Under the pieces are notes generated by a model that saw only the letters and a program-made list of their open reading frames with translations, was not told the DNA's origin and did not search any database. The position numbers and the translations under genes were made by a program. Shown here in pieces: positions 1 through 12,591 of a stretch of 24,231 bases of DNA. How positions within the stretch are numbered: position 1 is the first letter of the stretch; each line of letters starts with the position of its first letter. This DNA is from a virus (lineage: Duplodnaviria > Heunggongvirae > Uroviricota > Caudoviricetes). The DNA is taken from IMG/VR virus record IMGVR_UViG_2690315980_000001, one strand, 5' to 3'.

Positions 1-46
1 CTACGGGTTAAAAGCCCGTTGCTCTAACCTACTGAGCTAACGACAC
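1..46 (-). tRNA. tRNA-Lys(UUU), 5' part only, truncated by the window edge
   Basis: Identical to the matching part of the full copy at 809-885; anticodon arm ACGGG-CT TTT AA-CCCGT. Confidence 0.9.
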
Positions 47-50
47 AAAG

Positions 51-127
51 TGGCGGGTGATCTAGGACTTGAACCTAGCACCTGTTGGTTAACAGCCAAC
101 TGCTCTAACCAGATGAGCTAATCACCC
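51..127 (-). tRNA. tRNA-Asn(GUU), copy 2
   Basis: Cloverleaf; anticodon arm GTTGG-CT GTT AA-CCAAC; G73; encoded CCA. Confidence 0.95.
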
Positions 128-133
128 TAAGTT

Positions 134-209
134 TGGTTCCACCTGCTGGACTTGAACCAGCGACCTTACCCTTATCAGGGGTATGCTCTACCAACTGAGC
201 TAAGGCAGA
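134..209 (-). tRNA. tRNA-Ile(GAU)
   Basis: TACCC-CT GAT AA-GGGTA; T-arm GCTGG TTCAAGT CCAGC; encoded CCA. Confidence 0.95.
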
Positions 210-216
210 ATTAAAA

Positions 217-292
217 TGGCGGAGATGACGGGGATTGAACCCGCGACCTCTTGCGTGACAGGCAAGCGTCATAACCACTAGACTACATCTCC
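217..292 (-). tRNA. tRNA-Asp(GUC)
   Basis: CTTGC-CT GTC AC-GCAAG; acceptor GGAGATG/CATCTCC; G73; CCA. Confidence 0.95.
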
Positions 293-297
293 AAATG

Positions 298-373
298 TGG
301 AGCACTGTGGCAGATTTGAACTGCCGAATAATGGATTTGCAATCCACCCTCTTAACCACTTGAGTAACAGTGC
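298..373 (-). tRNA. tRNA-Cys(GCA)
   Basis: GTGGA-TT GCA AA-TCCAT; U73 Cys identity element; CCA. Confidence 0.95.
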
Positions 374-374
374 A

Positions 375-450
375 TGGTGCATCCTACTGGTCTCGAACCA
401 GTGACCTCTTCTTTGTAAGAGAAGCGCTCTCCCAACTGAGCTAAGGACGC
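375..450 (-). tRNA. tRNA-Val(UAC)
   Basis: CTTCT-CT TAC AA-AGAAG; CCA. Confidence 0.95.
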
Positions 451-455
451 GTAAC

Positions 456-531
456 TGGTGGAGGCAAAGGGAATCGAACCCTCGACAACTGACTTGCAAA
501 GCCAGCACTCTACCTACTGAGTTATACCCCC
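456..531 (-). tRNA. tRNA-Ala(UGC)
   Basis: CTGGC-TT TGC AA-GTCAG; G3:U70 alanine identity pair present; CCA. Confidence 0.95.
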
Positions 532-536
532 AAAAA

Positions 537-612
537 TGGTGCCTCGAAGTGGAATTGAACCACTGACGCGAAGATCTTCAATCTTCCGCTCTACCAACTG
601 AGCTATCAAGGC
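537..612 (-). tRNA. tRNA-Phe(GAA)
   Basis: GAAGA-TT GAA GA-TCTTC; CCA. Confidence 0.95.
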
Positions 613-613
613 A

Positions 614-690
614 TGGTTCCCCTTGCTGGACTCGAACCAGCGACCACATGATTAAAAGTCACATGCTCTAACCAACTGAGCTAAAGAGGA
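614..690 (-). tRNA. tRNA-Lys(UUU), second sequence type (A31-U39)
   Basis: TGTGA-CT TTT AA-TCATG; body differs from 809-885; CCA. Confidence 0.95.
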
Positions 691-728
691 ATTATTTCTA
701 AAGCACTCTCGTAAAAGCACTTGAGAAA

Positions 729-804
729 TGGCACTGCCAACGAGGATCGAACTCGTGTTACAAGCTTGAAAGGCTTGTGTCCTAACCAACTAGACGATAG
801 CAGC
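729..804 (-). tRNA. tRNA-Glu(UUC)
   Basis: CAAGC-CT TTC AA-GCTTG; short variable loop; CCA. Confidence 0.95.
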
Positions 805-808
805 GCAA

Positions 809-885
809 TGGTGTGTCGGGCAGGAATCGAACCTGCGACCTACGGGTTAAAAGCCCGTTGCTCTAACCTACTGAGCTAACGACAC
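809..885 (-). tRNA. tRNA-Lys(UUU), G31-C39 type
   Basis: ACGGG-CT TTT AA-CCCGT; U7/C66 mismatch in the acceptor stem; CCA. Confidence 0.93.
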
Positions 886-889
886 AAAG

Positions 890-966
890 TGGCGGGTGAT
901 CTAGGACTTGAACCTAGCACCTGTTGGTTAACAGCCAACCGCTCTAACCAGATGAGCTAATCACCC
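890..966 (-). tRNA. tRNA-Asn(GUU), first gene of the array
   Basis: Same as 51-127 apart from one base (tRNA position 26); CCA. Confidence 0.95.
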
Positions 967-1167
967 ATAATTTATAAGACAACTAAAATCTAATTGCCTT
1001 ATAAATTATTTTTATCTCTAAAAATAATTCAAGGTCGCCTTGGTTACAAATCAAACTATTCCCTTAAATTTAGGTGAAATGGTGTTGATTTAGCGACCTA
1101 ACCCGAATCAAGATTACAAACATTTATATTTATATACTCAATCCGAATTTTACAATCCAAGTTGTTA

Positions 1168-1271
1168 AAGAACAAAAAGCCCAGTGAAACTTAAGGAAGT
1201 CTCACTGGGCTAATCATAGCTTATGTGTAGTTTGAGACTTCCGCCTCAACCACTTTTAAGTATGAGGCAAA
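1168..1271 (-). terminator. Attenuator of leader L1: alternative hairpins plus intrinsic terminator
   Basis: Terminator AGCCCAGTGAGACTT-CCTT-AAGTTTCACTGGGCT followed by TTTTGTTCTTT (stem 1178-1211). Perfect 10-bp antiterminator GGAAGTCTCA (1233-1242) / TGAGACTTCC (1195-1204). Upstream GCCTCA/TGAGGC hairpin (1263-1268/1243-1248). Confidence 0.85.
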
Positions 1272-1397
1272 TCAAGTTGTAATTTCGATCTTATTATCCA
1301 CGTTCATTTTTTTCGCACAGCAAATATCAGCCGCAATTGCGTTAAACATCGCATCGCACTTCTCAATTTTTACTGTCGTAAATGTCGTGATAAACAT
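1272..1397 (-). CDS. Leader peptide L1, 41 aa MFITTFTTVKIEKCDAMFNAIAADICCAKKMNVDNKIEITT
   Basis: Translated by hand; SD AGGA in AGGATTTTATT-ATG; stop abuts the attenuator; not in the ORF track. Confidence 0.8.
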   Translation of the reverse strand: MFITTFTTVKIEKCDAMFNAIAADICCAKKMNVDNKIEITT

Positions 1398-1429
1398 AAT
1401 AAAATCCTGATAAATGGTTTTTTTAATAC

Positions 1430-1523
1430 AAAAAAGTCAGCTTAGCTATCGCCTCGCTGACTATATACAAGAAAATCTTGAAATCTTTGAGGCAACCCTC
1501 AAAGATACAATTATCCTGAAGGT
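1430..1523 (-). terminator. Attenuator of leader L2: alternative hairpins plus probable intrinsic terminator
   Basis: AGTCAGC(14-nt loop)GCTGACT followed by TTTTTG (1430-1462); perfect ATCTTTGAGG-GTTG-CCTCAAAGAT hairpin (1483-1506); competing CCTTCAGGATA/TATCTTTGAGG (1512-1522/1497-1507). Confidence 0.7.
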
Positions 1524-1628
1524 TTAAATATTGTTTTTACAGTCAAATTTCTTGTCTGTATTCTTCTCACAGGCAAACATATTGTCTGTGTTTGTTTCAA
1601 TCGTATTTTTCGCGATGATAATAAACAT
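1524..1628 (-). CDS. Leader peptide L2, 34 aa MFIIIAKNTIETNTDNMFACEKNTDKKFDCKNNI
   Basis: Translated by hand; SD-like AGGT upstream; same restricted amino-acid alphabet as L1; not in the ORF track. Confidence 0.75.
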   Translation of the reverse strand: MFIIIAKNTIETNTDNMFACEKNTDKKFDCKNNI

Positions 1629-1689
1629 AACATTACCTGTGAGTTAAAAAGTAGTTTTAAGTGTTAGGCTCTTGCCTTCCGATGAATTA

Positions 1690-1719
1690 ATAATAAACCT
1701 AAATGTTTTTTCAGGTCAA
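1690..1719 (-). promoter_or_regulatory. sigma70 promoter for the L2-L1-tRNA transcript
   Basis: TTGACC-18 nt-TATTAT on the minus strand, just downstream of the 1755-1786 terminator. Confidence 0.6.
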
Positions 1720-1754
1720 CACTTAATTTTATATTTTTTATGTTTTTTTTGGGC

Positions 1755-1786
1755 AAAAAAAGAAAGAGGGCTGAAAAACCCTCTTT
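1755..1786 (-). terminator. Intrinsic terminator of the 1797-2897 gene
   Basis: AAAGAGGG-loop-CCCTCTTT followed by CTTTTTTT. Confidence 0.75.
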
Positions 1787-1796
1787 ATTCAATTAC

Positions 1797-2897
1797 TTAC
1801 AAAACTTTATTTTTTGCGTTTTTTTCACCAAACTTATAGTTTTTCAACTTGAAGTTGTTTTGTAGTCGCTCTTCCAACACTCCCTCGTCATTAAAAACTA
1901 ACTCTTTTCCTTCATAATACCAGGTAGATGTTCCACCTATTGGTTGAGAAAGATCATATTTAACCGATGGGTCAAACAACTTATAAGGATTAAATCTGGT
2001 AGATTTTGAATGCTCAGTGCGGTCAAATTGATAGTTGTATTCTACTCTTTCTGGCGCACCTAGAGAAAGAAACACTTCAACCTTGTTCATACCATAATTA
2101 ATCTCGCTAGACTTAATGCTGGAGTGGTGAGCCTTATGGACTAAAGGAGACTTCAACGGATCTTTGTATACAATTCTGTTGATATCAAAAGGAACATTTA
2201 CCCTTTCACCATCATCAAGTCTAACCACAAAACTAAATTGTGATTCATCTAATCCATACCCCGTATTTAACGAGTAATCAATTTTTTCAACTTTTAGGGG
2301 TTGGTTATGTGGTACTCTAATGGTATCAGAGCTGTTCGTTCCATATACTGAGGTATTTGTTTTATCAGCCCCTCGCCCTAAGACATAAATCGCCTTACCC
2401 ACATGCTCTTCAGCGGCTTTCAAGTCTGAGTTGTGGATTAACTGTAGTTGTGATTGCATTTGTCTAAATGGAAAAACACCATCCCTATCATCATTATTCT
2501 TATCAAATACTGATGCAAAATTTCCGTATTCAGGAATAACCACTTCAATGGATTTACAATTATCCAAAACACCAGAATAAACACGATAGTATCTAAGCTT
2601 ACCAGGCTCATTAGGATCTTCATCTGTTTTTTGAATGAAACTAGTTGTATCGATTTTTAAATCACGACCATAAATATCTGATTCGGTTAGAGGTGTCTTT
2701 TGATATCTTTCATACAAGTATGAGTAAGAGTCTTGAGGAAGGTTATTCATTCTATTATTGAACTTGAGTTCGGCAGAGACATTCCCCGCTTCGAACTCAA
2801 GCCCACGAATAACTTTGTAATTGCATTCGCTTGCGAATGCTGAAGATGAGATAACGCCAATAGCTAGGGCTATAGTCGTTTTTAGAAATTTATTCAT
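1797..2897 (-). CDS. Exported hypothetical protein with a C-terminal BamE/SmpA-like motif
   Basis: Sec signal peptide ending SAFA-SEC; GMNKVEVFLSLGAP resembles the SmpA/BamE-domain motif. Confidence 0.6.
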   Translation of the reverse strand: MNKFLKTTIALAIGVISSSAFASECNYKVIRGLEFEAGNVSAELKFNNRMNNLPQDSYSYLYERYQKTPLTESDIYGRDLKIDTTSFIQKTDEDPNEPGKLRYYRVYSGVLDNCKSIEVVIPEYGNFASVFDKNNDDRDGVFPFRQMQSQLQLIHNSDLKAAEEHVGKAIYVLGRGADKTNTSVYGTNSSDTIRVPHNQPLKVEKIDYSLNTGYGLDESQFSFVVRLDDGERVNVPFDINRIVYKDPLKSPLVHKAHHSSIKSSEINYGMNKVEVFLSLGAPERVEYNYQFDRTEHSKSTRFNPYKLFDPSVKYDLSQPIGGTSTWYYEGKELVFNDEGVLEERLQNNFKLKNYKFGEKNAKNKVL

Positions 2898-2955
2898 TGA
2901 ATTACCCGTTTATTATTAATTTGAGTAATATAATGGCATAAATAAATTTCCAATT

Positions 2956-3762
2956 CTAGGAGTTAATAACCAACTCTATTCTTTTTTGCATATCTAAAGA
3001 AACGCTGATTCCGTTACACTGTAACATGTCCATCATATCTCTGATTAGCAATACTGCATCACTTTCCACCTTATCTGAAGATGTAATAACTTCACTATCA
3101 ATCTCAGCATCAGGAGAAAGGTCTGTTACAGTACAGGAGAATGCTGTAGCAAGCTTAATTAGCAATTCATTATTTACAGGAGCTTTACCATTAATAATCT
3201 GGGAGAAACCCGCTTGCGTTTTGAGTCCAAGCTTTGACTGACAGAATTCTTGTTGAGTCATACCTGTCATATCTTGGTATTCCTGCCATCTCATTTTAAT
3301 GTTTTTAGCTACCTTTTTCATTTTTTCTGAGCTTAAACCACATTCACTTGAGCGCTTTTCTTTTAAGAAGCTTTTAAACTCTGCATGATTGAAATCATAC
3401 TTGATCATTTGAGGCTCAACATCCAGTCCAGAAGCAATTTTATCAATTACGCTGTCACCAAGTGGAAGTGTACCTTTTAAATAAGCTGAGAAGTTTGAAG
3501 TTGTAGTCCAACCAATGCTTTTACAAAAAGTGCTACGTGTAATATTTTCCCTTTCTGAATACTGCTCCCAAAGAAGATTTAAGTTTTCTCTGGCTTTATC
3601 CTGAATTTTAGATTCAATAAGTGACGCTGAATCAGACTTACTCAGGTACAATGCATTTAAGATAGAGTCTACTGTACGATTTGTAGACATATTGTTCTCT
3701 TTTATTAGAAAATCTTTTACTTCACCACTTTGTATTGCTAAAGCTTTCATTAAATTCACCAA
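2956..3762 (-). CDS. Transcription regulator with two XRE/CI-like HTH domains (probable start at 3690)
   Basis: Two paralogous segments, NLNLLW..ITRSTFCKSIGW..SNFSAYLKG and NIKMRW..MTQQEFCQSKLG..AGFSQIING. Confidence 0.75.
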   Translation of the reverse strand: MVNLMKALAIQSGEVKDFLIKENNMSTNRTVDSILNALYLSKSDSASLIESKIQDKARENLNLLWEQYSERENITRSTFCKSIGWTTTSNFSAYLKGTLPLGDSVIDKIASGLDVEPQMIKYDFNHAEFKSFLKEKRSSECGLSSEKMKKVAKNIKMRWQEYQDMTGMTQQEFCQSKLGLKTQAGFSQIINGKAPVNNELLIKLATAFSCTVTDLSPDAEIDSEVITSSDKVESDAVLLIRDMMDMLQCNGISVSLDMQKRIELVINS

Positions 3763-3821
3763 TGTCTTTAATTAATTAATTAATAAATATTTATTCGTTA
3801 TTCATTTTAAATTTTTTGGGG

Positions 3822-4286
3822 TTAGTACGGTAGTTCGTCTTTGTATTCGAACATATTCTCCCCATCTCTCAACGGATTTTGTTGTTGAGATTCTTGATAG
3901 TCAGATTGCTGAGTCTGGTATCGTTGCTGTTGCCCTGCTGTATTGCCTAGCGCTTTTGATTCATTAATATATTTAGCACCCAGAACAACTTTCATATCAG
4001 CTTGATTGCAAGAAAATCCAAGACCTACAAATCTATTTGTATTTATTAAGTAATGCTTTCCAGATAGCGTGATAATAGCACCTATCCCTATAAGCCCTTC
4101 ATTTATCACATTTTCAAGACTATTTCTGTTAGGAGAAAAAATATTACACTGATACCATTGATCTACAGACCTGCCATTAATGAAGTCATTGACACAAAGT
4201 GGAACTTTTATAAAGTATCCATTTTTCCCTTGTTTTATTTCTGGGTGCTTTCCAACTCTACCTAATATTACTGTATTCTGAGACAT
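3822..4286 (-). CDS. ssb: Single-stranded DNA-binding protein
   Basis: VILGRVGKHPEIK, DQWYQCNIF OB-fold pattern; Gln-rich linker; acidic-aromatic tail KDELPY. Confidence 0.75.
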   Translation of the reverse strand: MSQNTVILGRVGKHPEIKQGKNGYFIKVPLCVNDFINGRSVDQWYQCNIFSPNRNSLENVINEGLIGIGAIITLSGKHYLINTNRFVGLGFSCNQADMKVVLGAKYINESKALGNTAGQQQRYQTQQSDYQESQQQNPLRDGENMFEYKDELPY

Positions 4287-4585
4287 TAATTACCTACTGC
4301 ATTAACTAAATGTAATTTAATTGGTTCATGTTTCGCTTCAATCTTTTGGATTTCACTAATCATGCTAAGAAGCTCGACGGATTCACTTCTTAAAGTTTTA
4401 GGTACACCTTTAGATTGAATAAGTAAGTTTTTAATCAAATCAGAAGATTCAAGTAACAGGTCATTAAAAAGCTGAGCTTTTTCACTATCAGTTAATAATG
4501 ATAAAAAATTGCCTATTTCATTGATGCTGGCTTTACTTGAGTCAGTCGAAGAGATGCTGCTCACTAGCCTTAACTTATTGTCCAT
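4286..4585 (-). CDS. Hypothetical protein, translationally coupled to ssb
   Basis: 99-aa ORF; stop overlaps the ssb start by 1 nt. Confidence 0.7.
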   Translation of the reverse strand: MDNKLRLVSSISSTDSSKASINEIGNFLSLLTDSEKAQLFNDLLLESSDLIKNLLIQSKGVPKTLRSESVELLSMISEIQKIEAKHEPIKLHLVNAVGN

Positions 4586-4745
4586 ATTAAATATTTTCTT
4601 TGATTTTATGATGCTTTAGAGCATTATAACGAGATAAATATTTTCTGCAACCCCCTGATATAAAATTTCTTATATGCATTCTTGTGCTCAGTATACATAA
4701 AATGATAAAATATAATCAATTAAACAATAATAAAGGCAAAAAATC

Positions 4746-5438
4746 ATGGCAAGCTCAAGAAACACAATCATAGCTAAGCTAAGCACTACGCAATCAAACG
4801 TGAGAAGTGTTCGTATCAATGTGCATCCAAAATACAATGAGACAGACTCTGGATATCCAATAACGATTTACGAAACGCTAAACAGTAGAAATCTACCACC
4901 ACAGAAAGCATTTCTAAATCTTAAGGTTGGAGGAAAGGATCAATGGCTATCTATTAGCACATCAGCTCGCGCAACAAATGAGAATGGTGAGTACAAGCTA
5001 GCACCAAAGAGGAATGAACAAGGCTGTCTTGTAAATAGAAAAGGCGATGTTGTTCAAACTGAAGAAGAAGCAGCAAGATCTTTTATTTATGAAAAAGAAG
5101 ATGGTCGTAGCTTTAACATAGAGCTAGGTACATTATCTATTCAAAATACAAACTCTGAGGGTCAGCCGACCAAATGCACTCTGATTAAAGCTAAACTTTA
5201 CAGCGATAAAGAAGCTATTGCTATCCGACAAATGATGAAGGAAGCTAAAAATACTCCTGAAGAGTACAGACAGGCGCAATATGATAAGATTTCCGATTAC
5301 AAGCGTAATCATGGTGACTGGAAAACTTTATTTATTTCAGAAGGTCATGATTTCCTGAGAGGTTTAGGGTTTGAAGTAAGAGAAAACGCTCCTAAAAACC
5401 AACCTGGTAATGACTATAAAGATGACATTCCCTTCTAG
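4746..5438 (+). CDS. Hypothetical protein with an SSB-type C-terminal DDIPF tail
   Basis: 230-aa ORF ending YKDDIPF; followed by a terminator. Confidence 0.75.
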   Translation: MASSRNTIIAKLSTTQSNVRSVRINVHPKYNETDSGYPITIYETLNSRNLPPQKAFLNLKVGGKDQWLSISTSARATNENGEYKLAPKRNEQGCLVNRKGDVVQTEEEAARSFIYEKEDGRSFNIELGTLSIQNTNSEGQPTKCTLIKAKLYSDKEAIAIRQMMKEAKNTPEEYRQAQYDKISDYKRNHGDWKTLFISEGHDFLRGLGFEVRENAPKNQPGNDYKDDIPF

Positions 5439-5456
5439 CTAATTATTATAACTAAT

Positions 5457-5485
5457 AAAAAAGACTGCATTGCAGTCTTTTTTTT
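5457..5485. terminator. Bidirectional intrinsic terminator
   Basis: A-tract, AAAGACTGCA/TGCAGTCTTT palindrome and T-tract between convergent genes. Confidence 0.8.
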
Positions 5486-6224
5486 ACATCGCCAGCGATG
5501 AAATTCGATTGTCTTTTTTCTTTGTCTTTAACTCATAGACATTTCTTTTATCTATTGTTACCACATTACCGACGTTAACATCTATTTTAGTAAGATCTTC
5601 TGTTGTACAAAACATCCAGTCCATATGGTCTTCTTCAATTTGCATGAGTCCTTTAGAAGAGTACCATTGAAGAAGCTTTTCTCTGCTTTTTTCAGGATTC
5701 ATTCCTAATGTTCGATACTGGTACGAAGAGCTTAGATGAGAGCATAGCTGTAATGGACAAGCTTGAAGCACCATTAAACCAAAGCTTTTCCCGTAGTGCT
5801 CAGGGAAAAATTTAAGCAAATATTCACCAAAACCTTTACCCAAAAACCTTGGCTTAACTTTCAATTCCTTAATAAATATTACATTTCTTTTTATTTCTTT
5901 ATTTGAATTTTCTAAATGAGATTTAACAGAATCATGAAATTCCAGATCTAGCTTGTTTGTTCTGTAATCGTAAGTATTATGCTTAGAAAGCCATGAGAAT
6001 GCAGTGGAAAACTCACTATCTGATGAAGCTGATCTAGACATAACTGATAGCGGATTCCCTTCTACTAGTAATTTTTCCAGTTCAAAGCACAAAAATTCCA
6101 CTTCGCAAACCACTTCACCTGTTCCATTTTGCATAAGCTGCGCAACATTATTGGTGAGATACCCGTAACTATTTCGAACCTCTGACAAAACAGTAAGCTC
6201 TATTTTATTCAAAATGCTTTTCAT
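5484..6224 (-). CDS. GNAT-family acetyltransferase-like protein
   Basis: FIKELKVKPRFLGKGFGEYLL (acetyl-CoA motif A) and LLQWYSSKG. Confidence 0.65.
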   Translation of the reverse strand: MKSILNKIELTVLSEVRNSYGYLTNNVAQLMQNGTGEVVCEVEFLCFELEKLLVEGNPLSVMSRSASSDSEFSTAFSWLSKHNTYDYRTNKLDLEFHDSVKSHLENSNKEIKRNVIFIKELKVKPRFLGKGFGEYLLKFFPEHYGKSFGLMVLQACPLQLCSHLSSSYQYRTLGMNPEKSREKLLQWYSSKGLMQIEEDHMDWMFCTTEDLTKIDVNVGNVVTIDKRNVYELKTKKKDNRISSLAM

Positions 6225-6252
6225 GAATTTATTTATTAATGATTTAAAGTTT

Positions 6253-6756
6253 TTACTTTTTCAAATACTCAGAAAAAGTTAGTTTTTCAGTTTTTCCTGA
6301 CGTTGACCAATTTAGAACCCACTTTTCTGAATCTATAATAGGAAAGAAGGTATCAGCATTCTCAACAACCTCATCAACAACAGTAATCAACAACCGATCT
6401 GCTATTGAAATCGATTCTTTATATATCATACCTCCGCCAATAACAAGTAATTCTTGGAAATTATTATCGCTATAAACCTTTGTTATTGCTTCTGGAATTG
6501 AATTTATGCCGCAAACTGTTGCAAACCCTTTATCTGAAAAAAAATTCTTATCTTTTTCACTACAAAGAACAAAGTTGTCTCTATTTTTAAGAGGTGCTGA
6601 ATTGGGCAAAGAACGAGCAGTCCTTGCCCCCATGATGACGGGCTTGTGTAGGGTATTGGTCTTGAAAAACTCCATATCTTCTCTGAATGAGAACAGTAAA
6701 TCATTCCCTTTTCCAATTGCTAAATTTTTAGACACACAAGCGATTAGCGTTATCAT
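6253..6756 (-). CDS. folA: Dihydrofolate reductase (type I fold)
   Basis: MITLIA..AIG, EDMEFFK.NT.HKPVIMG, PLKNR.N.VL, VIGGG.IY, DTFFP. Confidence 0.92.
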   Translation of the reverse strand: MITLIACVSKNLAIGKGNDLLFSFREDMEFFKTNTLHKPVIMGARTARSLPNSAPLKNRDNFVLCSEKDKNFFSDKGFATVCGINSIPEAITKVYSDNNFQELLVIGGGMIYKESISIADRLLITVVDEVVENADTFFPIIDSEKWVLNWSTSGKTEKLTFSEYLKK

Positions 6757-7178
6757 TCAATAACCACTCCCTGGTAGTTACTAATTGCATACAGTTGTGT
6801 GCCAAGATTATTTTGCTTAATCTCTTTTTTTAGTGATTCTGTTATTTCAGCACTATAAGCAAATTTACCATTGTAATAAACGTAAGCCCTACCTTGGAAC
6901 TCATAAGTTAAAATTAACCCCTTAACAGTACCTAACTCCCCAACACCATCATGATAATTTAGCATACCAGATGAATCACTATACATTTTTTCATATACTG
7001 ATATGTTTTCGTAGTCGCCATTTGTTCTAACTTCAAAGTCTGAAATGGATAATGCTGCACTTGATAAAAACACTCGGTTTGACAGTCCTGTTAACTCTTT
7101 ATATTTTGGGTCTGCAAATGAGCTAGTTGAAGCTGTCATAAGCACAATACCAGCTATCATCATGTGTTTAAGTTTCAT
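6753..7178 (-). CDS. Exported hypothetical protein
   Basis: Signal peptide ending SSFA-DP; overlaps the DHFR start by 4 nt. Confidence 0.7.
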   Translation of the reverse strand: MKLKHMMIAGIVLMTASTSSFADPKYKELTGLSNRVFLSSAALSISDFEVRTNGDYENISVYEKMYSDSSGMLNYHDGVGELGTVKGLILTYEFQGRAYVYYNGKFAYSAEITESLKKEIKQNNLGTQLYAISNYQGVVIE

Positions 7179-7383
7179 TATTATTATTCTCCAATAGTTG
7201 TTTTCTTAGTTGTTCTACTTGGTTTATTCTTTCTCTTAATGTTTTATCAATGTCTAATGTCTCAGATAATAATGGAGCTACTATATCCACATCTGGATTA
7301 GTCATGTTTTTTTCAAATTCTTTATGAATTTCATCTAATCGATTCGATAGCTTTGAGTAATTTGTTTGTTCTAAACCTGACAT
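7168..7383 (-). CDS. xseB: Probable exodeoxyribonuclease VII small subunit
   Basis: 71-aa helical protein directly after xseA; Y..L..RL.EI...E...DVD...PL..E......ERI..VE pattern. Confidence 0.65.
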   Translation of the reverse strand: MSGLEQTNYSKLSNRLDEIHKEFEKNMTNPDVDIVAPLLSETLDIDKTLRERINQVEQLRKQLLENNNNET

Positions 7384-7433
7384 TTACTTATTCCTTACAT
7401 TAGTAAAACAGAATATTACATCCCGTTCAATAT

Positions 7434-8945
7434 TTAATCTTGCTTGCTTAATTCGATTCTAGGAAACTCTCGAACTTTTTCAATTTGGTTAATATCAACT
7501 CGCACGATACCATCAGACAAGCTCAGTTTAGCTTCGCCTTCTTTTAGATGATTCACGCTAGTAACAAGTGTTTCATCCTGGTTAACTAATGAGTATCCCT
7601 TATTTAAGATAGCAATAGGGTTGTTCATCATAATCATCATTAGCTTTTCTTTACGAATATTATCCGCTGAAACAAGAGTATCTTTTGATATCGAAGATAT
7701 AGATGTGATTTTTTGGTCAAGAGCGTTTCTTGCTCTCTCAATCACGACTGCACTGTTATCAATAATTCTTGACACCTTACTGTCCAATGCGCTTTTTGCA
7801 AGCAATACGCTTTTTTCGGACAAGCTTATGATTCTTTCGAAATTTCGAGCATCCTTCTCTGATGATGAAATGATTACATCTCTAATCATATTTACTACCA
7901 TCGAAGGTGTTGCACATCTGGTATGTGCAATTTCATCTATAATTGTATTATCTCTTTCATGCCCGATACCGCAGAATATCGGCGCATTAAGACATAGCAG
8001 CGATTTAGCTATTTCATACTCATTTAAGGCATATAAACCTGCTTTATCACCACCACCACGAATCACACATACCGCATCGAATGGATTTCTTTCATGATCA
8101 GCATTTATCTTACTCACTGCTGAAGTGATCGTGTTTATGGAGTTATTCCCCTGGAAAGTTGCAGAATAATAACTGAATTTACATAGACCTAAACTATCCA
8201 AAAGTGATGATTGCGTCTGAAAGTCACCCAAGCCAGCAGCCATATCTGGAGATAGAACAGCAACTCTGAAAAAGTTATCTGGTGCCTTCATTCTCTTGTT
8301 GTTAAGAAATATTCCCTCAGATCTTAATCTATCTCTAATTGCATTTAGCTTTGCTTCCATCTCACCGATAGTAAATGATGGGTTGATATCAATGATGTTC
8401 AGACTTAAGCCGTACTTCTCACTGAACTCAGGCTTTACACAGATTAGAACCTTCATGTTATGAGCCAGCTTCATGCCTGTTGAACGCTCAAATTTGCTAA
8501 TAATGTCTTTTCTCTTGCTCCAAATCATACCTCTAGCTTTCGCCAATTCAGAGCCATTCGAATCATAATCAGAAAGCTCTAGGTACACATGTGAGCTACC
8601 AGTAATATTTGAAATTTCAGCAGTAAGCCATGAGCCTTCAGTGAAGGTTTCTTCCATAAGGTTTTTGATTACACCCAAATATACTGACAAGCTCGATGGC
8701 TTATTGCTCTGCTTGTTCAGCATATGCTGAAACTTGGGTGTCCACCATTTCTTGAAAACGGTAACATCAATGCCTTTTGGTACGTACCAACAAACAAACG
8801 CACCATTACTTGAGTAAGGTAAAGCACCTAGTCTTTTTGCTTCTTCACGCTCCCCATATGGGACTTCGAGCCGTAATTTTCTATCTAGAATCATTGAAAT
8901 CTCCATTTTTAGTAAATTATACATGAAATCTATCCCGTAAACCAC
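7434..8945 (-). CDS. xseA: Exodeoxyribonuclease VII large subunit with an N-terminal DUF5710-like domain (probable start at 8894)
   Basis: WLTAEISN, HVYLEL, YGLSLNI.DI.PSFT.G, AAGLGDF, IRGGG, GIGHERD, TPS; N-terminal LEVPYGEREEAKRLGA; GGAG SD before 8894. Confidence 0.92.
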   Translation of the reverse strand: MVYGIDFMYNLLKMEISMILDRKLRLEVPYGEREEAKRLGALPYSSNGAFVCWYVPKGIDVTVFKKWWTPKFQHMLNKQSNKPSSLSVYLGVIKNLMEETFTEGSWLTAEISNITGSSHVYLELSDYDSNGSELAKARGMIWSKRKDIISKFERSTGMKLAHNMKVLICVKPEFSEKYGLSLNIIDINPSFTIGEMEAKLNAIRDRLRSEGIFLNNKRMKAPDNFFRVAVLSPDMAAGLGDFQTQSSLLDSLGLCKFSYYSATFQGNNSINTITSAVSKINADHERNPFDAVCVIRGGGDKAGLYALNEYEIAKSLLCLNAPIFCGIGHERDNTIIDEIAHTRCATPSMVVNMIRDVIISSSEKDARNFERIISLSEKSVLLAKSALDSKVSRIIDNSAVVIERARNALDQKITSISSISKDTLVSADNIRKEKLMMIMMNNPIAILNKGYSLVNQDETLVTSVNHLKEGEAKLSLSDGIVRVDINQIEKVREFPRIELSKQD

Positions 8946-9059
8946 TGATGATCATAATCAATTGATAAATTATCATTTTTTATCTTTCATACTATATGCT
9001 TTTGATGTAGCATTGGTCATTCTTTTAATAAGCCAATAAATATCAAGAGTAAATAGAAA

Positions 9060-9872
9060 ATGAGCGATAAGTTAAATCAAAAAATCCAAACACTAAACCT
9101 AAAGAAAGATCCAGTAATAATCGACCTGGTTAAGAAAACCGCAATCTCGTTAGAGAAGAAGGGTATTAATCTGGACAAGGACGCTGCCCGAGTTGCTTTG
9201 TGCATGGACTTCTCAGGCAGTATGTATTGGCTAATTAAGAACGGTACTGTCAGTGAGTTAACACAACGATCATTGGCTCAAGGCATCGTTATGGATGATG
9301 ATGGTGATATTGAGGTCTTTGGCTTTGGTTCTGATGCAAAGTACATTGAATCCATCAACGCCGACAACTATGTAGAGTACTGTGAAGGTGTTCAGCGAGA
9401 CATGCCAGATTTCGGTTCAACCTATTACCATAAAGCAATTAATCTAATTGTAAGTCATTATGACCGCATTGGTTATGATAAACCTGTCTATGTCATCTTC
9501 GTAACTGATGGTGATACCTTCAGCAAAACTGCAACTGAGGAAGCACTAAAAGCCGCTTCAGGCAAGCCAATCTTCTGGCAGTTCATTGGTATTGGTCAAG
9601 ATGACTACGATCCTAATCAGGTAGATGCCAAAGTTGTGAAGAAACCTGGAGTAATCGGTCGTTTCCTTGGCGCTAAAGAAAAAGAAGTTCCTAACACTAA
9701 GTTTGAGTTCTTAGTTAAACTTGATGAAATGGAAGGTCGCGTGGTAGATAATGCTGGATTCTTTGCTGTAAAAGATCCAAAGAGTATGAGTGCTGAACGT
9801 ATGTATGACTTGATGCACAATGAATACCCAGAGTGGCTTAAAGAAGTACGAGCTAAAGGCATTCTTCGCTAA
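9060..9872 (+). CDS. vWA-domain protein of the TerF-like (tellurite/stress ter-associated) family
   Basis: MIDAS DFSGS, VIFVTDG, PIFWQFIGIG, LDEMEGRVVDNAGFF. Confidence 0.85.
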   Translation: MSDKLNQKIQTLNLKKDPVIIDLVKKTAISLEKKGINLDKDAARVALCMDFSGSMYWLIKNGTVSELTQRSLAQGIVMDDDGDIEVFGFGSDAKYIESINADNYVEYCEGVQRDMPDFGSTYYHKAINLIVSHYDRIGYDKPVYVIFVTDGDTFSKTATEEALKAASGKPIFWQFIGIGQDDYDPNQVDAKVVKKPGVIGRFLGAKEKEVPNTKFEFLVKLDEMEGRVVDNAGFFAVKDPKSMSAERMYDLMHNEYPEWLKEVRAKGILR

Positions 9873-9891
9873 TTTGTAGATTTAAGCGAAC

Positions 9892-9925
9892 AAAAAGACA
9901 TGGGGAAGCCCATGTCTTTTTTTTT
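9892..9925. terminator. Bidirectional intrinsic terminator
   Basis: AAAAAGACATGGG-GAAG-CCCATGTCTTTTT. Confidence 0.8.
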
Positions 9926-9939
9926 ATTTCAGTTAATAA

Positions 9940-10464
9940 TTACTTTTCAATATTGTAAAGCAAAGCCATCTCACCCAGACCCACAACCAACATTTTGTTT
10001 TCAAAAATCCTGATAGGGAAAACCTGACCCTCCTTTGTCTGAATGGTATAACTGGCGCTATTAGGTAATTCAATTTGCTCTTGGGTGATTTTAGTTATGT
10101 TAAAAACCTTGCTTTCTAATTGAATCTTCTCATTTGATAATTGAATTGCAGGAGGTAAGCCAAGCTGTGTTTTACCTATTACCATACTATGCGGCTTGAA
10201 TGAGACTCCAGATTCAGAACTATTAAATGGATTCACAACTACTTGTTGAGCAATTACTTGTTGAGATTTTGCGCTAATTGCTATATCTTCATCACTTCTA
10301 AATCCATTAAAAAATGCAATTGCTACAAATATATAAAGCACAATAAATGGCAAACTTGTTATTTGTTCAATAAATACTAACTTTGGGCTTAGTTTCCGTT
10401 CCTCTGGTGATGCGCAATCTTCAAAATGACAAAATTTTATTTTATTTTTCATAGGTACACTCAT
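9940..10464 (-). CDS. Hypothetical single-pass membrane protein
   Basis: One hydrophobic segment, IITSLPFIVLYIFVAIAFF region. Confidence 0.65.
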   Translation of the reverse strand: MSVPMKNKIKFCHFEDCASPEERKLSPKLVFIEQITSLPFIVLYIFVAIAFFNGFRSDEDIAISAKSQQVIAQQVVVNPFNSSESGVSFKPHSMVIGKTQLGLPPAIQLSNEKIQLESKVFNITKITQEQIELPNSASYTIQTKEGQVFPIRIFENKMLVVGLGEMALLYNIEK

Positions 10465-10957
10465 GTTTAGAATTTGTATGTTATTTTTATTAATTTCTTC
10501 TGTTAGCTTCCCTGCCTATCCGCACACTCAAACCAAAGCCAAAATTCTAGTAATTAAGTCAGAAAGAGTATTACTACTACTGAAAAACAATAAAATTGCT
10601 AAAGAGTACAAGATCGCTCTGGGAAAGAATCCTGTCGGAGACAAAGTAAAACAAGGAGATAATAAAACACCAGAGGGTAAATATCAAATTGTCAGTAAGA
10701 ACAGTCAGAGTAAATTTTATCTTAATTTGGCAATAAACTACCCATCTAAGTTGGATATTAAAGAAGCAAAAAGGCTAGGCGTTAATCCAGGCGGTAATAT
10801 TGTTATTCATGGCTTACCCAACAAAGCTCCTAGCTTTATTCACGATGAATTAATGAGCGAAGACTGGACAAATGGTTGCATAGCTTTACATAACAGCGAT
10901 ATTAAGGATTTGTTTGATTCAGTTCCTGTCGGAACAAGTATCGATATTCTTCCTTGA
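10463..10957 (+). CDS. L,D-transpeptidase (YkuD family)
   Basis: K..QGDNKTPEGKY, GGNIVIHG, WTNGCIAL (catalytic His and Cys); signal peptide. Confidence 0.9.
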   Translation: MFRICMLFLLISSVSFPAYPHTQTKAKILVIKSERVLLLLKNNKIAKEYKIALGKNPVGDKVKQGDNKTPEGKYQIVSKNSQSKFYLNLAINYPSKLDIKEAKRLGVNPGGNIVIHGLPNKAPSFIHDELMSEDWTNGCIALHNSDIKDLFDSVPVGTSIDILP

Positions 10958-11044
10958 TTCTTAGTCTTTGTTTTTTAAAGGTCTTTTAAATTGAATGAAC
11001 ATGCATTAGACATAATCTATTAATGTGGTAAAATTTGCGCCGTT

Positions 11045-11770
11045 TTGACATACGACTACGGGTTCCATATGCGCACTTTTGAAGAGATCGGAAATATAGC
11101 GATAAATGCATTGCTATCTTATCATTGCTCCCCTGAAAGAATGAAAGTTTCAAAAGAAGCTACAGTAAGACTATATCTTAAGAAAGTGCTATCTCGAAAA
11201 AAGTACAGCAAAAATTCATGTTATTACCTAAAGTCACTCTTACAAAAAGCTACATCATCCTACTCAATGTATAATGTTTTAAGTGGAATTGCTGAAAACT
11301 ACACTAGAGTCATATCTCATGATAAGAAATTTGATGACATTTGCTTTTACGATAGATTTCAATCTTTATTTAAGAAGATGCGTGATCTTGGTTATGAGCT
11401 GCATATAGACATTGAAGGTGATTCACTGTTTCTAAACGAAAACAGTAAAGCTATGGTGATTTTCAAAAATGACTATATCAATTTAGAACCGTCTGGTGAT
11501 CTTACTGGAGTTCTTTATGTCACTGTAGTTAATAAATGTATGTATGATTTTATTGAATCAGCATTTAACTCAGGTCTATACCCAAAACTATTCAAAGAGA
11601 GTAGTAACGTTAGTAAATTTGAGATTCATCCTAACAACAACCCACCAGCACCAATTTCATTTATTTCTACAAAGGAAGATTATCTTCATAAACGCCGAGT
11701 TATGGCTAATGAGAAATCATTATTTGCTGGCAAGGTAAACCCGTTCCAGTTAAAAATGAAGAAATCCTAA
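11045..11770 (+). CDS. Hypothetical protein (TTG start); N-terminus loosely recalls DUF2913, unverified
   Basis: 241-aa ORF; upstream TAGACA-16-TAAAAT with extended TG. Confidence 0.6.
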   Translation: MTYDYGFHMRTFEEIGNIAINALLSYHCSPERMKVSKEATVRLYLKKVLSRKKYSKNSCYYLKSLLQKATSSYSMYNVLSGIAENYTRVISHDKKFDDICFYDRFQSLFKKMRDLGYELHIDIEGDSLFLNENSKAMVIFKNDYINLEPSGDLTGVLYVTVVNKCMYDFIESAFNSGLYPKLFKESSNVSKFEIHPNNNPPAPISFISTKEDYLHKRRVMANEKSLFAGKVNPFQLKMKKS

Positions 11771-11778
11771 ATTTTCTG

Positions 11779-11806
11779 TTGACTTTCCTAGACCAAGAAT
11801 TATAAG
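11779..11806 (+). promoter_or_regulatory. sigma70 promoter for leader L3
   Basis: TTGACT-16 nt-TATAAG. Confidence 0.6.
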
Positions 11807-11842
11807 CTTTAATTGTAAACATACATTTTTAAGGATTTTATT

Positions 11843-11911
11843 GTGAAAGCTAAAACATTTATTACCTCTAAAGTAGGTATCCAGCAACCGTGGCAACAAG
11901 CTTATGTGTAA
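11843..11911 (+). CDS. Leader peptide L3, 22 aa MKAKTFITSKVGIQQPWQQAYV (GTG start)
   Basis: SD AAGGA in AGGATTTTATT-GTG; codons CAG CAA CCG TGG CAA CAA at 11882-11899; stop lies in the first hairpin of the attenuator. Confidence 0.85.
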   Translation: MKAKTFITSKVGIQQPWQQAYV

Positions 11912-11997
11912 GTTTTAGCTTTCGCATGGCTAAAACTTAGGTTTTAGCCACAGGAAAGACACCTAACCCCTGATGGCTCTCCATCAGGGGTTTTTTT
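11909..11997 (+). terminator. Attenuator of leader L3: alternative hairpins plus intrinsic terminator
   Basis: A:B TAAGTTTTAGC/GCTAAAACTTA (11 bp); B:C TGGCTAAAAC/GTTTTAGCCA (10 bp); C:D AGCCACAGG/CCTGATGGCT; terminator AACCCCTGATGG-CTCT-CCATCAGGGGTT followed by TTTTT. Confidence 0.88.
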
Positions 11998-12116
11998 ATG
12001 CTTAAAAAATTCAGATGGAATAAAGTCAACTTATCTCTGCATATCTATGCTGGAGAGGAGGTCTTGTGGTTTTAGTGTAAGTGCTTGATTTTATTGAATT
12101 TTTTTTAATTTTCTTG

Positions 12117-12145
12117 TTGACAGATAAAATGTTCAGGTTTAATAT
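12117..12145 (+). promoter_or_regulatory. Near-consensus sigma70 promoter immediately upstream of tRNA-Pro
   Basis: TTGACA-17 nt-TAATAT. Confidence 0.75.
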
Positions 12146-12169
12146 GTAGTCATACAGTAAAGAAACACA

Positions 12170-12246
12170 CGGTGAATAGCGCAGCCTGGTAGCGCATCTG
12201 CTTTGGGAGCAGAGGGTCGAGAGTTCGAATCTCTCTTCACCGACCA
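12170..12246 (+). tRNA. tRNA-Pro(UGG), copy 1
   Basis: TCTGC-TT TGG GA-GCAGA; C1-G72, A73; CCA. Confidence 0.95.
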
Positions 12247-12257
12247 AATTATATTGT

Positions 12258-12334
12258 TGGGGTGTAGCCAAGTTGGTTTAAGGCAATAGACTTTGATTCT
12301 ATGAACGGGGGTTCAAGTCCCTCCACCTCAGCCA
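12258..12334 (+). tRNA. tRNA-Gln(UUG), copy 1
   Basis: ATAGA-CT TTG AT-TCTAT; U1-A72, G73; CCA. Confidence 0.95.
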
Positions 12335-12346
12335 GAACAACAAAGT

Positions 12347-12422
12347 GTAGAGGTAGCTCAGTTGGTAGAGCATCGGATTCCAAACCCGCTGGTCGGGGGT
12401 TCAACTCCCTCCCTCTATGCCA
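12347..12422 (+). tRNA. tRNA-Trp(CCA)
   Basis: Acceptor GTAGAGG/CCTCTAT; loop TT CCA AA; G73; CCA; anticodon stem has two mismatches. Confidence 0.88.
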
Positions 12423-12426
12423 CATT

Positions 12427-12503
12427 CGGTGAATAGCGCAGCCTGGTAGCGCATCTGCTTTGGGAGCAGAGGGTCGAGAGTTCGAATCTCTCTTCACCGA
12501 CCA
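12427..12503 (+). tRNA. tRNA-Pro(UGG), copy 2
   Basis: Identical to 12170-12246. Confidence 0.95.
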
Positions 12504-12514
12504 AATTACATTGT

Positions 12515-12591
12515 TGGGGTGTAGCCAAGTTGGTTTAAGGCAATAGACTTTGATTCTATGAACGGGGGTTCAAGTCCCTCCACCCCAGCCA
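12515..12591 (+). tRNA. tRNA-Gln(UUG), copy 2
   Basis: One acceptor-stem difference from copy 1 (C12585 vs T12328). Confidence 0.95.

What the first reader, a model, noticed from the sequence alone, without database searches (positions are those of the whole stretch)
1..12591. The genetic code appears split among separately sensed tRNA operons, which predicts unseen genes
Seen: array 1 and its leaders cover N, K, E, F, A, V, C, D, I; array 2 and its control codons cover P, Q, W; the two arrays share no specificity. Thr (10 codons, ACA/ACG/ACT) and internal Met are in L1/L2 but have no tRNA in the window. Inference: tRNA-Thr(UGU) and tRNA-Met(CAU) lie just off the left edge, and one or more further operons for Leu, Ser, Arg, Gly, Tyr and His with matching leaders exist elsewhere on the replicon.
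Basis: inference. Interest (0 to 1): 0.75.

Follow-up and report, generated by a model that had tools for sequence, protein, structure and literature searches.

The report
Codon-matched leader sensors on plasmid tRNA operons
On a ~0.9-Mb Vibrio plasmid, three blocks of tRNA genes divide 18 amino acids between them. Each block sits behind tiny test genes spelled only in its own amino acids and wired to a switchable transcription stop, so the plasmid probably makes a tRNA set when those codons are read slowly.

Summary
The window carries two tRNA arrays with no shared specificity: N,K,E,F,A,V,C,D,I and P,Q,W. Two tandem leader ORFs sit upstream of array 1 and one upstream of array 2.

The window's own replicon is not held. 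I tested the predictions on three sequenced relatives, ~0.9-Mb Vibrio megaplasmids 95-99% identical to the window.
- **Prediction 1 holds in relatives.** Array 1 continues with only the 11 leader amino acids and includes Thr(UGU) and CAU tRNAs.
- **Prediction 2 holds in part.** A third array holds only Leu/Ser/Tyr/His tRNAs. Two leaders precede it, with 13/14 and 16/17 codons in that set, each followed by a terminator.
- **Arg and Gly fail the prediction.** Their tRNAs lie in a loose cluster with a promoter per gene and no leader.

On the 882-kb plasmid, the four full-length leaders are the only top hits among 43,443 small ORFs that are not low-complexity. QQPWQQ is unique in all six frames. 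Eight unrelated phage tRNA clusters show nothing comparable. Leader codons also favour the arrays' U34 anticodons.

Best reading: leader-peptide attenuators in which slow decoding gives read-through into the tRNA genes. I found no published account. This scan has noted the same design before, on a sister plasmid and on giant phages.

The parts
1..46 (-). 5' part of a tRNA gene cut by the window edge (identical to tRNA-Lys UUU); array 1 continues beyond the edge
   Evidence: Rfam tRNA 35.8 bits, cut at 3'. Window 1-127 is 100% identical to an Asn-Lys pair of NZ_CP062152.
51..966 (-). Array 1, visible part: tRNA-Asn, Lys, Glu, Lys, Phe, Ala, Val, Cys, Asp, Ile, Asn in transcription order
   Evidence: ARAGORN and Rfam
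1178..1211 (-). Intrinsic terminator of leader L1 (15-bp stem, CCUU loop, U-tract 1177-1170); segments D (1211-1197) and E (1192-1178)
   Evidence: Terminator scan; folds
1227..1268 (-). L1 switch segments A (1268-1263), B (1253-1243) and C (1242-1227). Helices A:B, B:C, C:D and D:E are mutually exclusive in a chain.
   Evidence: Staged folding. Substitutions in relatives keep the helices.
1272..1397 (-). Leader ORF L1, 41 codons, SD AGGA 7 nt upstream; 40/40 codons in the 11-amino-acid set of array 1
   Evidence: Annotated as a 41-aa hypothetical protein in NZ_CP062152. Variants P0003-P0005.
1429..1523 (-). L2 attenuator: alternative hairpins and a weaker U-tailed stem (1461-1436, U-tract 1435-1429)
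   Evidence: Folds; 97% conserved in relatives
1524..1628 (-). Leader ORF L2, 34 codons; 33/33 codons in the same set
1690..1719 (-). Promoter-like site (TTGACC-18-TATTAT) for the L2-L1-array 1 transcript. It follows the terminator of the upstream gene at 1786-1763.
11778..11805 (+). Promoter-like site TTGACT-16-TATAAG upstream of L3 (read by eye; not listed by the scan)
   Evidence: Sequence
11843..11911 (+). Leader ORF L3 (GTG start, same AGGATTTTATT ribosome-binding region as L1) with control run QQPWQQ at 11882-11899
   Evidence: QQPWQQ is the only run of 6 or more {P,Q,W} residues holding all three in six frames of the 882-kb relative.
11909..11992 (+). L3 switch: A 11909-11920 (includes the stop codon), B 11927-11939, C 11946-11954, terminator D:E 11965-11992 followed by U7
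12117..12145 (+). Second, near-consensus promoter-like site (TTGACA-17-TAATAT) between the L3 terminator and array 2
   Evidence: identical in relatives
12170..12591 (+). Array 2: tRNA-Pro(UGG), Gln(UUG), Trp(CCA), Pro, Gln. It holds 8-20 genes of the same three kinds in relatives.

Best explanation
The window is part of a ~0.9-Mb, 34% G+C Vibrio megaplasmid that encodes tRNAs for all 20 amino acids.

Eighteen amino acids are divided among three dense tRNA operons:
- {F,T,I,N,D,C,M,A,K,V,E}
- {P,Q,W}
- {L,S,Y,H}

Each operon is transcribed through one or two short translated leader ORFs written in that operon's own amino acids. Each leader is followed by a chain of mutually exclusive helices that ends in an intrinsic terminator.

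Inferred mechanism. A ribosome that reads the leader quickly reaches the stop codon and masks segment A. B:C then forms, C cannot pair with D, the terminator D:E forms, and transcription stops before the tRNA genes. A ribosome that stalls anywhere in the leader for lack of a cognate aminoacyl-tRNA leaves A free. A:B and the antiterminator C:D then form, and RNA polymerase reads into the array. Each operon would thus be a demand-driven feedback loop on the decoding of its own codons.

Arg and Gly tRNAs stand outside this control in a promoter-per-gene cluster, along with extra Ser, Leu, CAU, Asn and Lys tRNAs.

What is shown: the genes, the partition, the codon match, the terminators and the alternative helices. 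What is inferred: that the leaders are translated, the direction of the switch, and the physiological signal.
For: **Partition.**
- Arrays 1, 2 and 3 hold only their own amino-acid sets in three plasmids, despite copy numbers of 27/43/33, 11/8/20 and 18/19/19 genes.

**Leader match.**
- L1 is 40/40 and L2 is 33/33 in set 1 (P 1.9e-9 and 6.3e-8).
- The array 3 leaders are 13/14 and 16/17 in {L,S,Y,H} (P 7e-8 and 1e-9). Each has almost no codons from the other sets.

**Whole-plasmid null.**
- Of 43,443 small ORFs, these four are the only top hits that are not low-complexity. Each lies upstream of its cognate array.
- Other hits I checked lie inside annotated genes.
- QQPWQQ is unique in six frames.

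**Codon level.**
- In six four-codon boxes, 27/33 leader codons end in A or G (15.9 expected, P 8e-5). 13/33 end in G (4.2 expected, P 1e-4). This fits the arrays' U34 anticodons.

**Structure.**
- Terminators follow L1 and L3.
- Every leader has a helix that sequesters the terminator's 5' strand.
- In 5 of 5 leaders the energy gain from that helix is larger with a ribosome stalled upstream than with one at the stop. For example, -11.1 against -5.0 kcal/mol for L1 and -10.6 against -5.6 for L4.

**Conservation.**
- Leader and attenuator segments are 93-97% identical to NZ_CP015514 and CP099927, against 84-85% for the spacer to the first tRNA.
- Attenuator substitutions keep the helices.
- 6/6 amino-acid replacements in L1 variants stay in the set, where 56% is expected.

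**Controls.**
- Eight unrelated phages with tRNA clusters (Lak-B1, ChrisDB, Milchi, KVP40, Atu_ph07, CcrColossus, GAP32, G) give no upstream ORF better than P about 5e-3.
Against: - There is no expression, ribosome-profiling or termination data. Translation of the leaders and the direction of the switch are inferred.
- Full-length minimum-energy folds keep the terminator in every scenario. In truncated folds the antiterminator is favoured even with the ribosome at the stop. The model therefore rests on folding kinetics.
- A near-consensus promoter-like site lies between the L3 terminator and array 2. That array may be made regardless of the attenuator.
- L2's terminator is weak.
- Arg and Gly tRNAs have no sensor, so the code is not fully 'sensed'.
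- L2 in two relatives carries one out-of-set codon, Asn to Ser.
- A leader sensor cannot tell scarce tRNA from scarce amino acid. Making more tRNA would not relieve amino-acid starvation.
- Only one narrow plasmid family was available, so there is almost no covariation.
- The identity of the CAU tRNAs (Met or lysidine-Ile) is unresolved.
Confidence: 0.75

Rival explanations
1. Same parts, opposite sign. Efficient translation of the leader promotes read-through, for example by coupling to RNA polymerase or by unmasking the antiterminator. Stalling then terminates, so tRNA output follows translational capacity rather than shortage.
For: In truncated-transcript folds the antiterminator C:D is the minimum-energy state even with a ribosome at the stop codon. 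The no-ribosome state of L3 pairs its start region with segment A, which would favour termination without translation.
Against: In 5 of 5 leaders the gain from antitermination is larger when segment A is free, i.e. with an upstream stall, than when it is masked. A whole ORF restricted to the array's own codons makes sense for detecting slow decoding. It has no evident purpose for reporting fast decoding. Known leader-peptide attenuators work by stall-induced read-through (established knowledge: trp, his, thr, ilv leaders).
Confidence: 0.1
2. The sensors are a counter-defence device. They detect loss of particular tRNAs to anticodon nucleases or other tRNA-targeting toxins and replace them from the plasmid's own arrays. 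They do not tune supply to the plasmid's AT-rich codon usage.
For: The arrays are amplified and vary in copy number between near-identical plasmids. The plasmid also carries tmRNA and SmpB. The leaders cover many tRNA species at once and favour weakly read G-ending codons, which would make them sensitive to depletion.
Against: I tested nothing that ties the arrays to a nuclease. The same anatomy fits simple supply-and-demand tuning. This is a variant of the main mechanism, not an alternative to it.
Confidence: 0.1
3. The small ORFs are untranslated by-products and the hairpins are ordinary terminators or processing sites. The composition match arises from sequence bias near tRNA genes.
For: No direct evidence of translation. 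Array 2 has its own promoter-like site downstream of the L3 terminator.
Against: The whole-plasmid scan puts the four leaders at the top of 43,443 ORFs, each at its cognate array. QQPWQQ is unique. There are Shine-Dalgarno sites at proper spacing. The codon-level bias differs from that of the plasmid's genes. Eight control phages and the plasmid's own Arg/Gly cluster show no such ORFs. The leaders are better conserved than the adjoining spacer.
Confidence: 0.05

Closest known systems
Multivalent leader-peptide attenuators of enterobacterial amino-acid operons (thr leader: Thr/Ile; ilvGMEDA leader: Ile/Leu/Val), from established knowledge
   Same: A short translated ORF rich in codons for several amino acids, alternative hairpins, and an intrinsic terminator before the regulated genes. 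Ribosome position decides termination.
   Different: The regulated genes here are tRNA genes, not biosynthetic enzymes. The whole ORF is the control region, with up to 11 amino acids and no other residue. Leaders come in tandem pairs. The switch has five segments, so a stall anywhere in the ORF could act. No Rfam leader family matches.
pheST (pheM leader) attenuator of phenylalanyl-tRNA synthetase in E. coli, from established knowledge
   Same: Leader-peptide attenuation applied to a component of the translation apparatus.
   Different: It controls a synthetase and senses one amino acid. Here tRNA arrays are controlled and three operons divide 18 amino acids.
Anabaena sp. PCC 7120 trn operon (26 tRNA genes on a megaplasmid), silent until translation is impaired (PMC8421152; repressor TrcR, PMC10272220)
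   Same: An accessory tRNA array on a megaplasmid whose expression responds to translational stress.
   Different: Control there is by a protein repressor binding direct repeats at the promoter. That paper has no mention of a leader, attenuator or terminator. It is one operon, with no division of the code.
T-box riboswitches
   Same: Transcription attenuation that reports on tRNA status.
   Different: T-boxes bind uncharged tRNA directly and need no translation. No T-box match here, and the leaders are ORFs with ribosome-binding sites.
tRNA clusters of cultured large phages (KVP40, Atu_ph07, CcrColossus, GAP32, G)
   Same: Mobile elements with 17-31 tRNA genes in clusters.
   Different: No codon-matched upstream ORFs: best P about 5e-3 among several hundred ORFs.

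Membership tests
Ribosome-mediated (leader-peptide) transcription attenuator | Short ORF with a start codon and Shine-Dalgarno site in the 5' leader of the regulated transcript | tested here: met
   L1, L2, L3 in the window and two leaders before array 3 in NZ_CP062152. SD AGGA/GAGG sits 6-8 nt before ATG/GTG.
Ribosome-mediated (leader-peptide) transcription attenuator | Control codons cognate to the regulated function, enriched beyond chance | tested here: met
   P 1e-9 to 7e-8 for four leaders. They top the whole-plasmid ORF scan. QQPWQQ is unique. There is a codon-level A/G bias.
Ribosome-mediated (leader-peptide) transcription attenuator | Intrinsic terminator between the ORF and the regulated genes | tested here: met
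   1211-1178(-) and 11965-11992(+) by scan. G+C-rich U-tailed hairpins follow both array 3 leaders. L2's is weak.
Ribosome-mediated (leader-peptide) transcription attenuator | Antiterminator mutually exclusive with the terminator, its formation dependent on ribosome position | tested here: inconclusive
   The exclusive helices exist in all five leaders. The energy gain is larger with an upstream stall in 5/5. The decision is kinetic and cannot be settled by folding.
Ribosome-mediated (leader-peptide) transcription attenuator | Regulated genes are amino-acid biosynthesis or synthetase genes | tested here: not met
   Downstream genes are tRNA genes only.
Ribosome-mediated (leader-peptide) transcription attenuator | Read-through rises when the cognate aminoacyl-tRNA is limiting | not testable with these tools
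   Needs reporter, Northern or Term-seq experiments.
T-box riboswitch | Specifier loop and T-box sequence (Rfam T-box model) | tested here: not met
   No T-box hit at gathering or at E up to 1 in the leader regions.
tRNA array unit (at least 20 tRNA genes at 2 or more per kb; definition quoted in the abstract of PMC4758250) | Number and density of tRNA genes | tested here: met
   Array 1 has 27, 43 and 33 genes in 2.3-3.6 kb in the three relatives. In the window only 12 are visible before the edge.
TrcR-repressed L-array (Anabaena type) | [quoted passage not shown] | not tested
   I did not look for the repeats or for a TrcR homologue.

The most novel reading that the evidence does not exclude
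A mobile replicon carries a nearly self-sufficient, self-regulating decoding kit. tRNA genes for 18 amino acids are split into three operons, and each is switched on by 'test translation' of its own codons. This would be homeostatic control of tRNA supply by ribosome speed, unknown for cellular tRNA genes. If the unchecked notes of this scan on giant phages hold, it is a general design of large mobile elements.
Probability: 0.6. Interest if true: 0.85.

Novelty: new variant of a known kind. Interest (0 to 1): 0.8.

Why it matters
Bacterial tRNA genes are thought to be controlled mainly at their promoters, by growth rate and the stringent response. A leader-peptide switch in front of tRNA operons would be a direct feedback from decoding speed to tRNA supply. 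It would also be amino-acid-set specific.

The strict division of the code into separately sensed operons gave predictions that mostly came true. That is itself strong evidence of function. The system also offers simple experiments: recode a leader and watch one array respond.

It bears on how AT-rich megaplasmids and giant phages translate in GC-richer hosts. It also bears on how they might resist tRNA-depleting defences.

Tried and rejected
**Access limits**
- No whole genome is held for the window, so the left flank of this replicon could not be read.
- The nearest virus record, G001, lacks the leader region.
I redid it from references.

**Searches for distant relatives that found nothing**
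- The gene next to array 1 against viral, genome and metagenome contigs.
- The gene next to array 2 against viral contigs.
- Distant blastn of the leaders found only the four known plasmids.

So I could not test whether leader content co-varies with array content across diverged elements.

**Arg/Gly sensors**
- I found none. An ORF ending in Ile-Arg-Arg-Arg upstream of tRNA-Arg(ACG) has no terminator and P = 0.07.

**Other high-scoring small ORFs on the plasmid**
- MWQQVRYWQQ..., MLLHSLSHHY and an Arg/Gly-rich ORF all lie inside annotated genes. I dismissed them.

**CAU tRNA identity**
- None has a 1:72 mismatch. blastn against E. coli was uninformative.

**Weak or negative tests**
- Leader residue counts against tRNA gene copy number gave rho 0.48-0.66 with n = 11. 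This is too weak to use.
- Rfam gave only sub-threshold chance matches in the leaders.


Full report
**1. What is in the window**

ARAGORN and Rfam agree on 16 complete tRNA genes.
- Array 1 lies on the minus strand at 51-966. In transcription order it is Asn, Lys, Glu, Lys, Phe, Ala, Val, Cys, Asp, Ile, Asn.
- A further gene is cut by the window edge at 1-46. It is identical to the Lys gene.
- Array 2 lies on the plus strand at 12170-12591: Pro(UGG), Gln(UUG), Trp(CCA), Pro, Gln.

Upstream of array 1, on the minus strand, the order is as follows.
- A promoter-like site at 1719-1690.
- ORF L2 at 1628-1524, 34 codons, with its hairpins.
- ORF L1 at 1397-1272, 41 codons.
- A 15-bp U-tailed terminator at 1211-1178.

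Upstream of array 2 lie ORF L3 (11843-11911, GTG start) and a 12-bp U-tailed terminator at 11965-11992.

All 40 non-start codons of L1 and all 33 of L2 encode F, T, I, N, D, C, M, A, K, V or E. Thr accounts for 10 codons (ACA x6, ACG x3, ACT x1) and internal Met for 3. L3 holds QQPWQQ at 11882-11899.

**2. Where the window comes from**

No genome is held for the window. Megablast places it on a family of ~0.9-Mb plasmids:
- NZ_CP062152, V. parahaemolyticus, 882 kb, 98.8% identical.
- NZ_CP097357.
- NZ_CP015514, V. vulnificus, 925 kb, 94.9% identical.
- CP099927, 939 kb.

L1 variants are also recorded from other Vibrio, on contigs of 908 and 925 kb. I used the three distinct plasmids as stand-ins for the replicon and fetched NZ_CP062152 whole.

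**3. Prediction 1: Thr and Met tRNAs in the unseen part of array 1**

In NZ_CP062152, array 1 has 27 genes, all from the 11-letter set. They include Thr(UGU) x4 and CAU tRNAs x3.

The other two plasmids have 43 and 33 genes from the same set only. The refuting outcome did not occur: there is no Leu, Ser, Arg, Gly, Tyr or His tRNA in array 1.

Two caveats apply.
- The window's first repeat unit (N K E K F A V C D I) lacks the Thr-Met-Met block that NZ_CP062152 has after the second Lys. Its left end looks like the start of a second unit. Arrays differ between plasmids by gain and loss of units, and the position of Thr and Met in this replicon is not shown.
- None of the CAU tRNAs has the 1:72 mismatch of an initiator. 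I could not tell elongator Met from lysidine-Ile.

**4. Prediction 2: further operons with matching leaders**

NZ_CP062152 has 75 tRNA genes for all 20 amino acids, plus a tmRNA.

A third dense array at 406849-408794 holds only Leu (five anticodons), Ser (three), Tyr and His. It has 18 genes there and 19 in each of the other two plasmids.

A promoter-like site (TTGACG-17-TATATT) lies upstream, followed by two tandem ORFs:
- MLHSYLHLSYLSLYN, with 13/14 codons in {L,S,Y,H}, P = 7e-8.
- MSYLSHLHYSLSYSLLST, with 16/17 in the set, P = 1e-9.

Each is followed by alternative hairpins and a G+C-rich U-tailed stem. The last stem ends about 35 nt before the first tRNA. This part of the prediction is met strikingly well.

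Arg and Gly are different. Their tRNAs lie at 472281-476818, mixed with extra Ser, Leu, CAU, Asn and Lys tRNAs and spaced 70-560 nt apart. A further Gly gene stands alone at 495119.
- Near-consensus promoter-like sites sit directly before several of these genes.
- In NZ_CP015514 the cluster is broken up by insertions of more than 10 kb.
- No upstream ORF matches better than P about 0.01, and there are no attenuator-like terminators.

So three sensed operons cover 18 amino acids. Arg and Gly are not sensed.

**5. Is the match more than chance?**

Against the composition of 709 long ORFs of the plasmid, each leader is enriched only for its own array's set and depleted for the others.

I scanned all 43,443 ORF and start combinations of 10-60 codons on both strands for purity in the four sets.
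- The four full-length leaders rank 5th to 9th.
- All the other entries among the first ten are homopolymer-like frames (poly-Pro, poly-Gly, poly-Ser).
- Lower hits that looked leader-like lie inside annotated genes.

QQPWQQ is the only run of six or more {P,Q,W} residues containing all three in the six-frame translation of 882 kb. It lies 288 nt before the Pro-Gln-Trp array.

The same script was applied to tRNA clusters of eight unrelated phages: Lak-B1, ChrisDB, Milchi, KVP40, Atu_ph07, CcrColossus, GAP32 and G. It gives no ORF better than P about 5e-3. Matched leaders are therefore not a by-product of tRNA clusters.

**6. Codon-level match**

I looked at the six four-codon boxes whose array tRNAs mostly carry U34 (Thr UGU, Ala UGC, Val UAC, Ser UGA, Pro UGG, Leu UAG).
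- 27 of 33 leader codons end in A or G. 15.9 are expected from the plasmid's genes, which prefer T-ending codons (P = 8e-5).
- 13 of 33 end in G, against 4.2 expected (P = 1e-4).

So the leaders are tuned to these tRNAs' anticodons, not just to amino acids, and they favour weakly read codons.

One anecdote: the two plasmids that carry an extra tRNA-Thr(AGU) are also the ones whose L1 has an ACC codon.

**7. The switch**

Full-length folds always keep the terminator, as in classical attenuators.

Transcripts truncated before the terminator's 3' strand show a helix in every leader that sequesters its 5' strand.

Staged folding shows a chain of exclusive helices in L1, L3 and both array 3 leaders.
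- A:B. Segment A lies at or just after the stop codon.
- B:C.
- C:D, the antiterminator.
- D:E, the terminator.

With a terminating ribosome masking A, the local hairpin B:C forms first, which leaves D for E. With A free, A:B and C:D form.

The energy gained by sequestering D is larger with an upstream stall than with a ribosome at the stop in all five leaders:

| Leader | Upstream stall (kcal/mol) | Ribosome at stop (kcal/mol) |
|---|---|---|
| L1 | -11.1 | -5.0 |
| L2 | -4.3 | -2.8 |
| L3 | -4.1 | -2.1 |
| Array 3, distal | -10.6 | -5.6 |
| Array 3, proximal | -8.9 | -6.4 |

This supports 'stall gives read-through' but does not prove it, because the outcome is kinetic.

Two points weaken the case for tight control.
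- L2's terminator is weak.
- A near-consensus promoter-like site (12117-12145) lies between the L3 terminator and array 2.

**8. Conservation**

Against NZ_CP015514 and CP099927, the leader ORFs and attenuators are 93-97% identical. The 200-nt spacer to the first tRNA is 84-85% identical.

The seven differences in the L1 attenuator fall as follows.
- One is in the terminator loop.
- One turns an A-U pair of the terminator stem into G-U.
- One lengthens the U-tract.
- Three remodel the 5' strand of B:C. By my reading of the alignment the helix is kept and loses its bulge; I did not refold the variant.
- One falls in the linker between C and D.

Across known L1 variants, six of six amino-acid replacements stay in the set (56% expected, P = 0.03). 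L2 in two plasmids has one replacement in the set and one out of it, Asn to Ser. This is weak but in the right direction.

**9. Comparison with what is known**

The mechanism is that of leader-peptide attenuation. The nearest relatives in logic are the multivalent thr and ilv leaders and the pheST leader (established knowledge).

The defining difference is the regulated product, which is tRNA genes. Other differences are the use of the whole ORF as a control region, the tandem leaders, and the division of the code among operons. No Rfam family matches.

Full-text searches found no paper on leader-peptide control of tRNA operons.

The nearest published case is the Anabaena megaplasmid trn operon. 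It is induced by translational stress, but through the repressor TrcR at the promoter (PMC8421152, PMC10272220).

Earlier notes of this scan report the same design on a sister copy of this plasmid, including the missing Arg and Gly sensors, which I confirmed independently. They also report it on several uncultured giant phages, which I did not check. The cultured large phages I tested lack it.

**10. Verdict**

I rate it a new variant of a known kind of control. It is of high interest because it would link decoding speed directly to tRNA gene expression, and because its predictions were borne out.

Noticed in passing
window 456-531 (-) versus NZ_CP062152 319826-319901: The tRNA-Ala gene has anticodon TGC in the window. 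The matching gene of the 98.9%-identical array has AGC. The two other plasmids also carry tRNA-Thr(AGT). A34 tRNAs other than Arg(ACG) are unusual in bacteria (from memory). Anticodons seem to change by point mutation inside these arrays.
   Followed up: partly
L001 14244-16591 and 27792-28727; L005; L006: Array sizes differ widely between near-identical plasmids: array 1 has 27, 43 and 33 genes and array 2 has 11, 8 and 20. The change is by gain and loss of repeat units, yet the amino-acid sets never mix.
   Followed up: yes
L004 1440-1812 (NZ_CP062152 about 494740-495111): A promoter-like site is followed by about 300 nt of possibly structured RNA (not folded). It ends in a weak tRNA-like element (Rfam tRNA, 35 bits) just before the lone tRNA-Gly. 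ARAGORN calls no tmRNA there. A separate tmRNA (tag ANDEHFTAIAA) lies at 444567-444943, and smpB lies 5.7 kb from the distal end of array 1.
   Followed up: partly
L003 (NZ_CP062152 472281-476818): The unsensed cluster holds tRNAs for Arg AGA/AGG/CGN, Gly (UCC), Ser AGY, Leu UUA, CAU (possibly Ile AUA), Asn and Lys. Several of these codons are typically rare in GC-richer genomes (not checked against Vibrio) and common on the plasmid; AGA is 40% of Arg codons. It may be a constitutive 'rare-codon' set.
   Followed up: partly
L002 2367-2453: A gap in array 3 of NZ_CP062152 holds a degraded tRNA-like sequence (sub-threshold tRNA and tRNA-Sec hits). The other two plasmids have a tRNA-Tyr at that place.
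   Followed up: no
window 1797-24231: Annotation of the near-identical NZ_CP062152 shows the surrounding genes are replication and repair functions typical of a phage-like or very large plasmid backbone: SSB, DHFR, XseA, uracil-DNA glycosylase, IHF-alpha, NrdG, Sir2, 3'-5' exonuclease. There are many hypothetical proteins. The gene next to array 1 (1797-2897) has homologues only in this plasmid family.
   Followed up: partly
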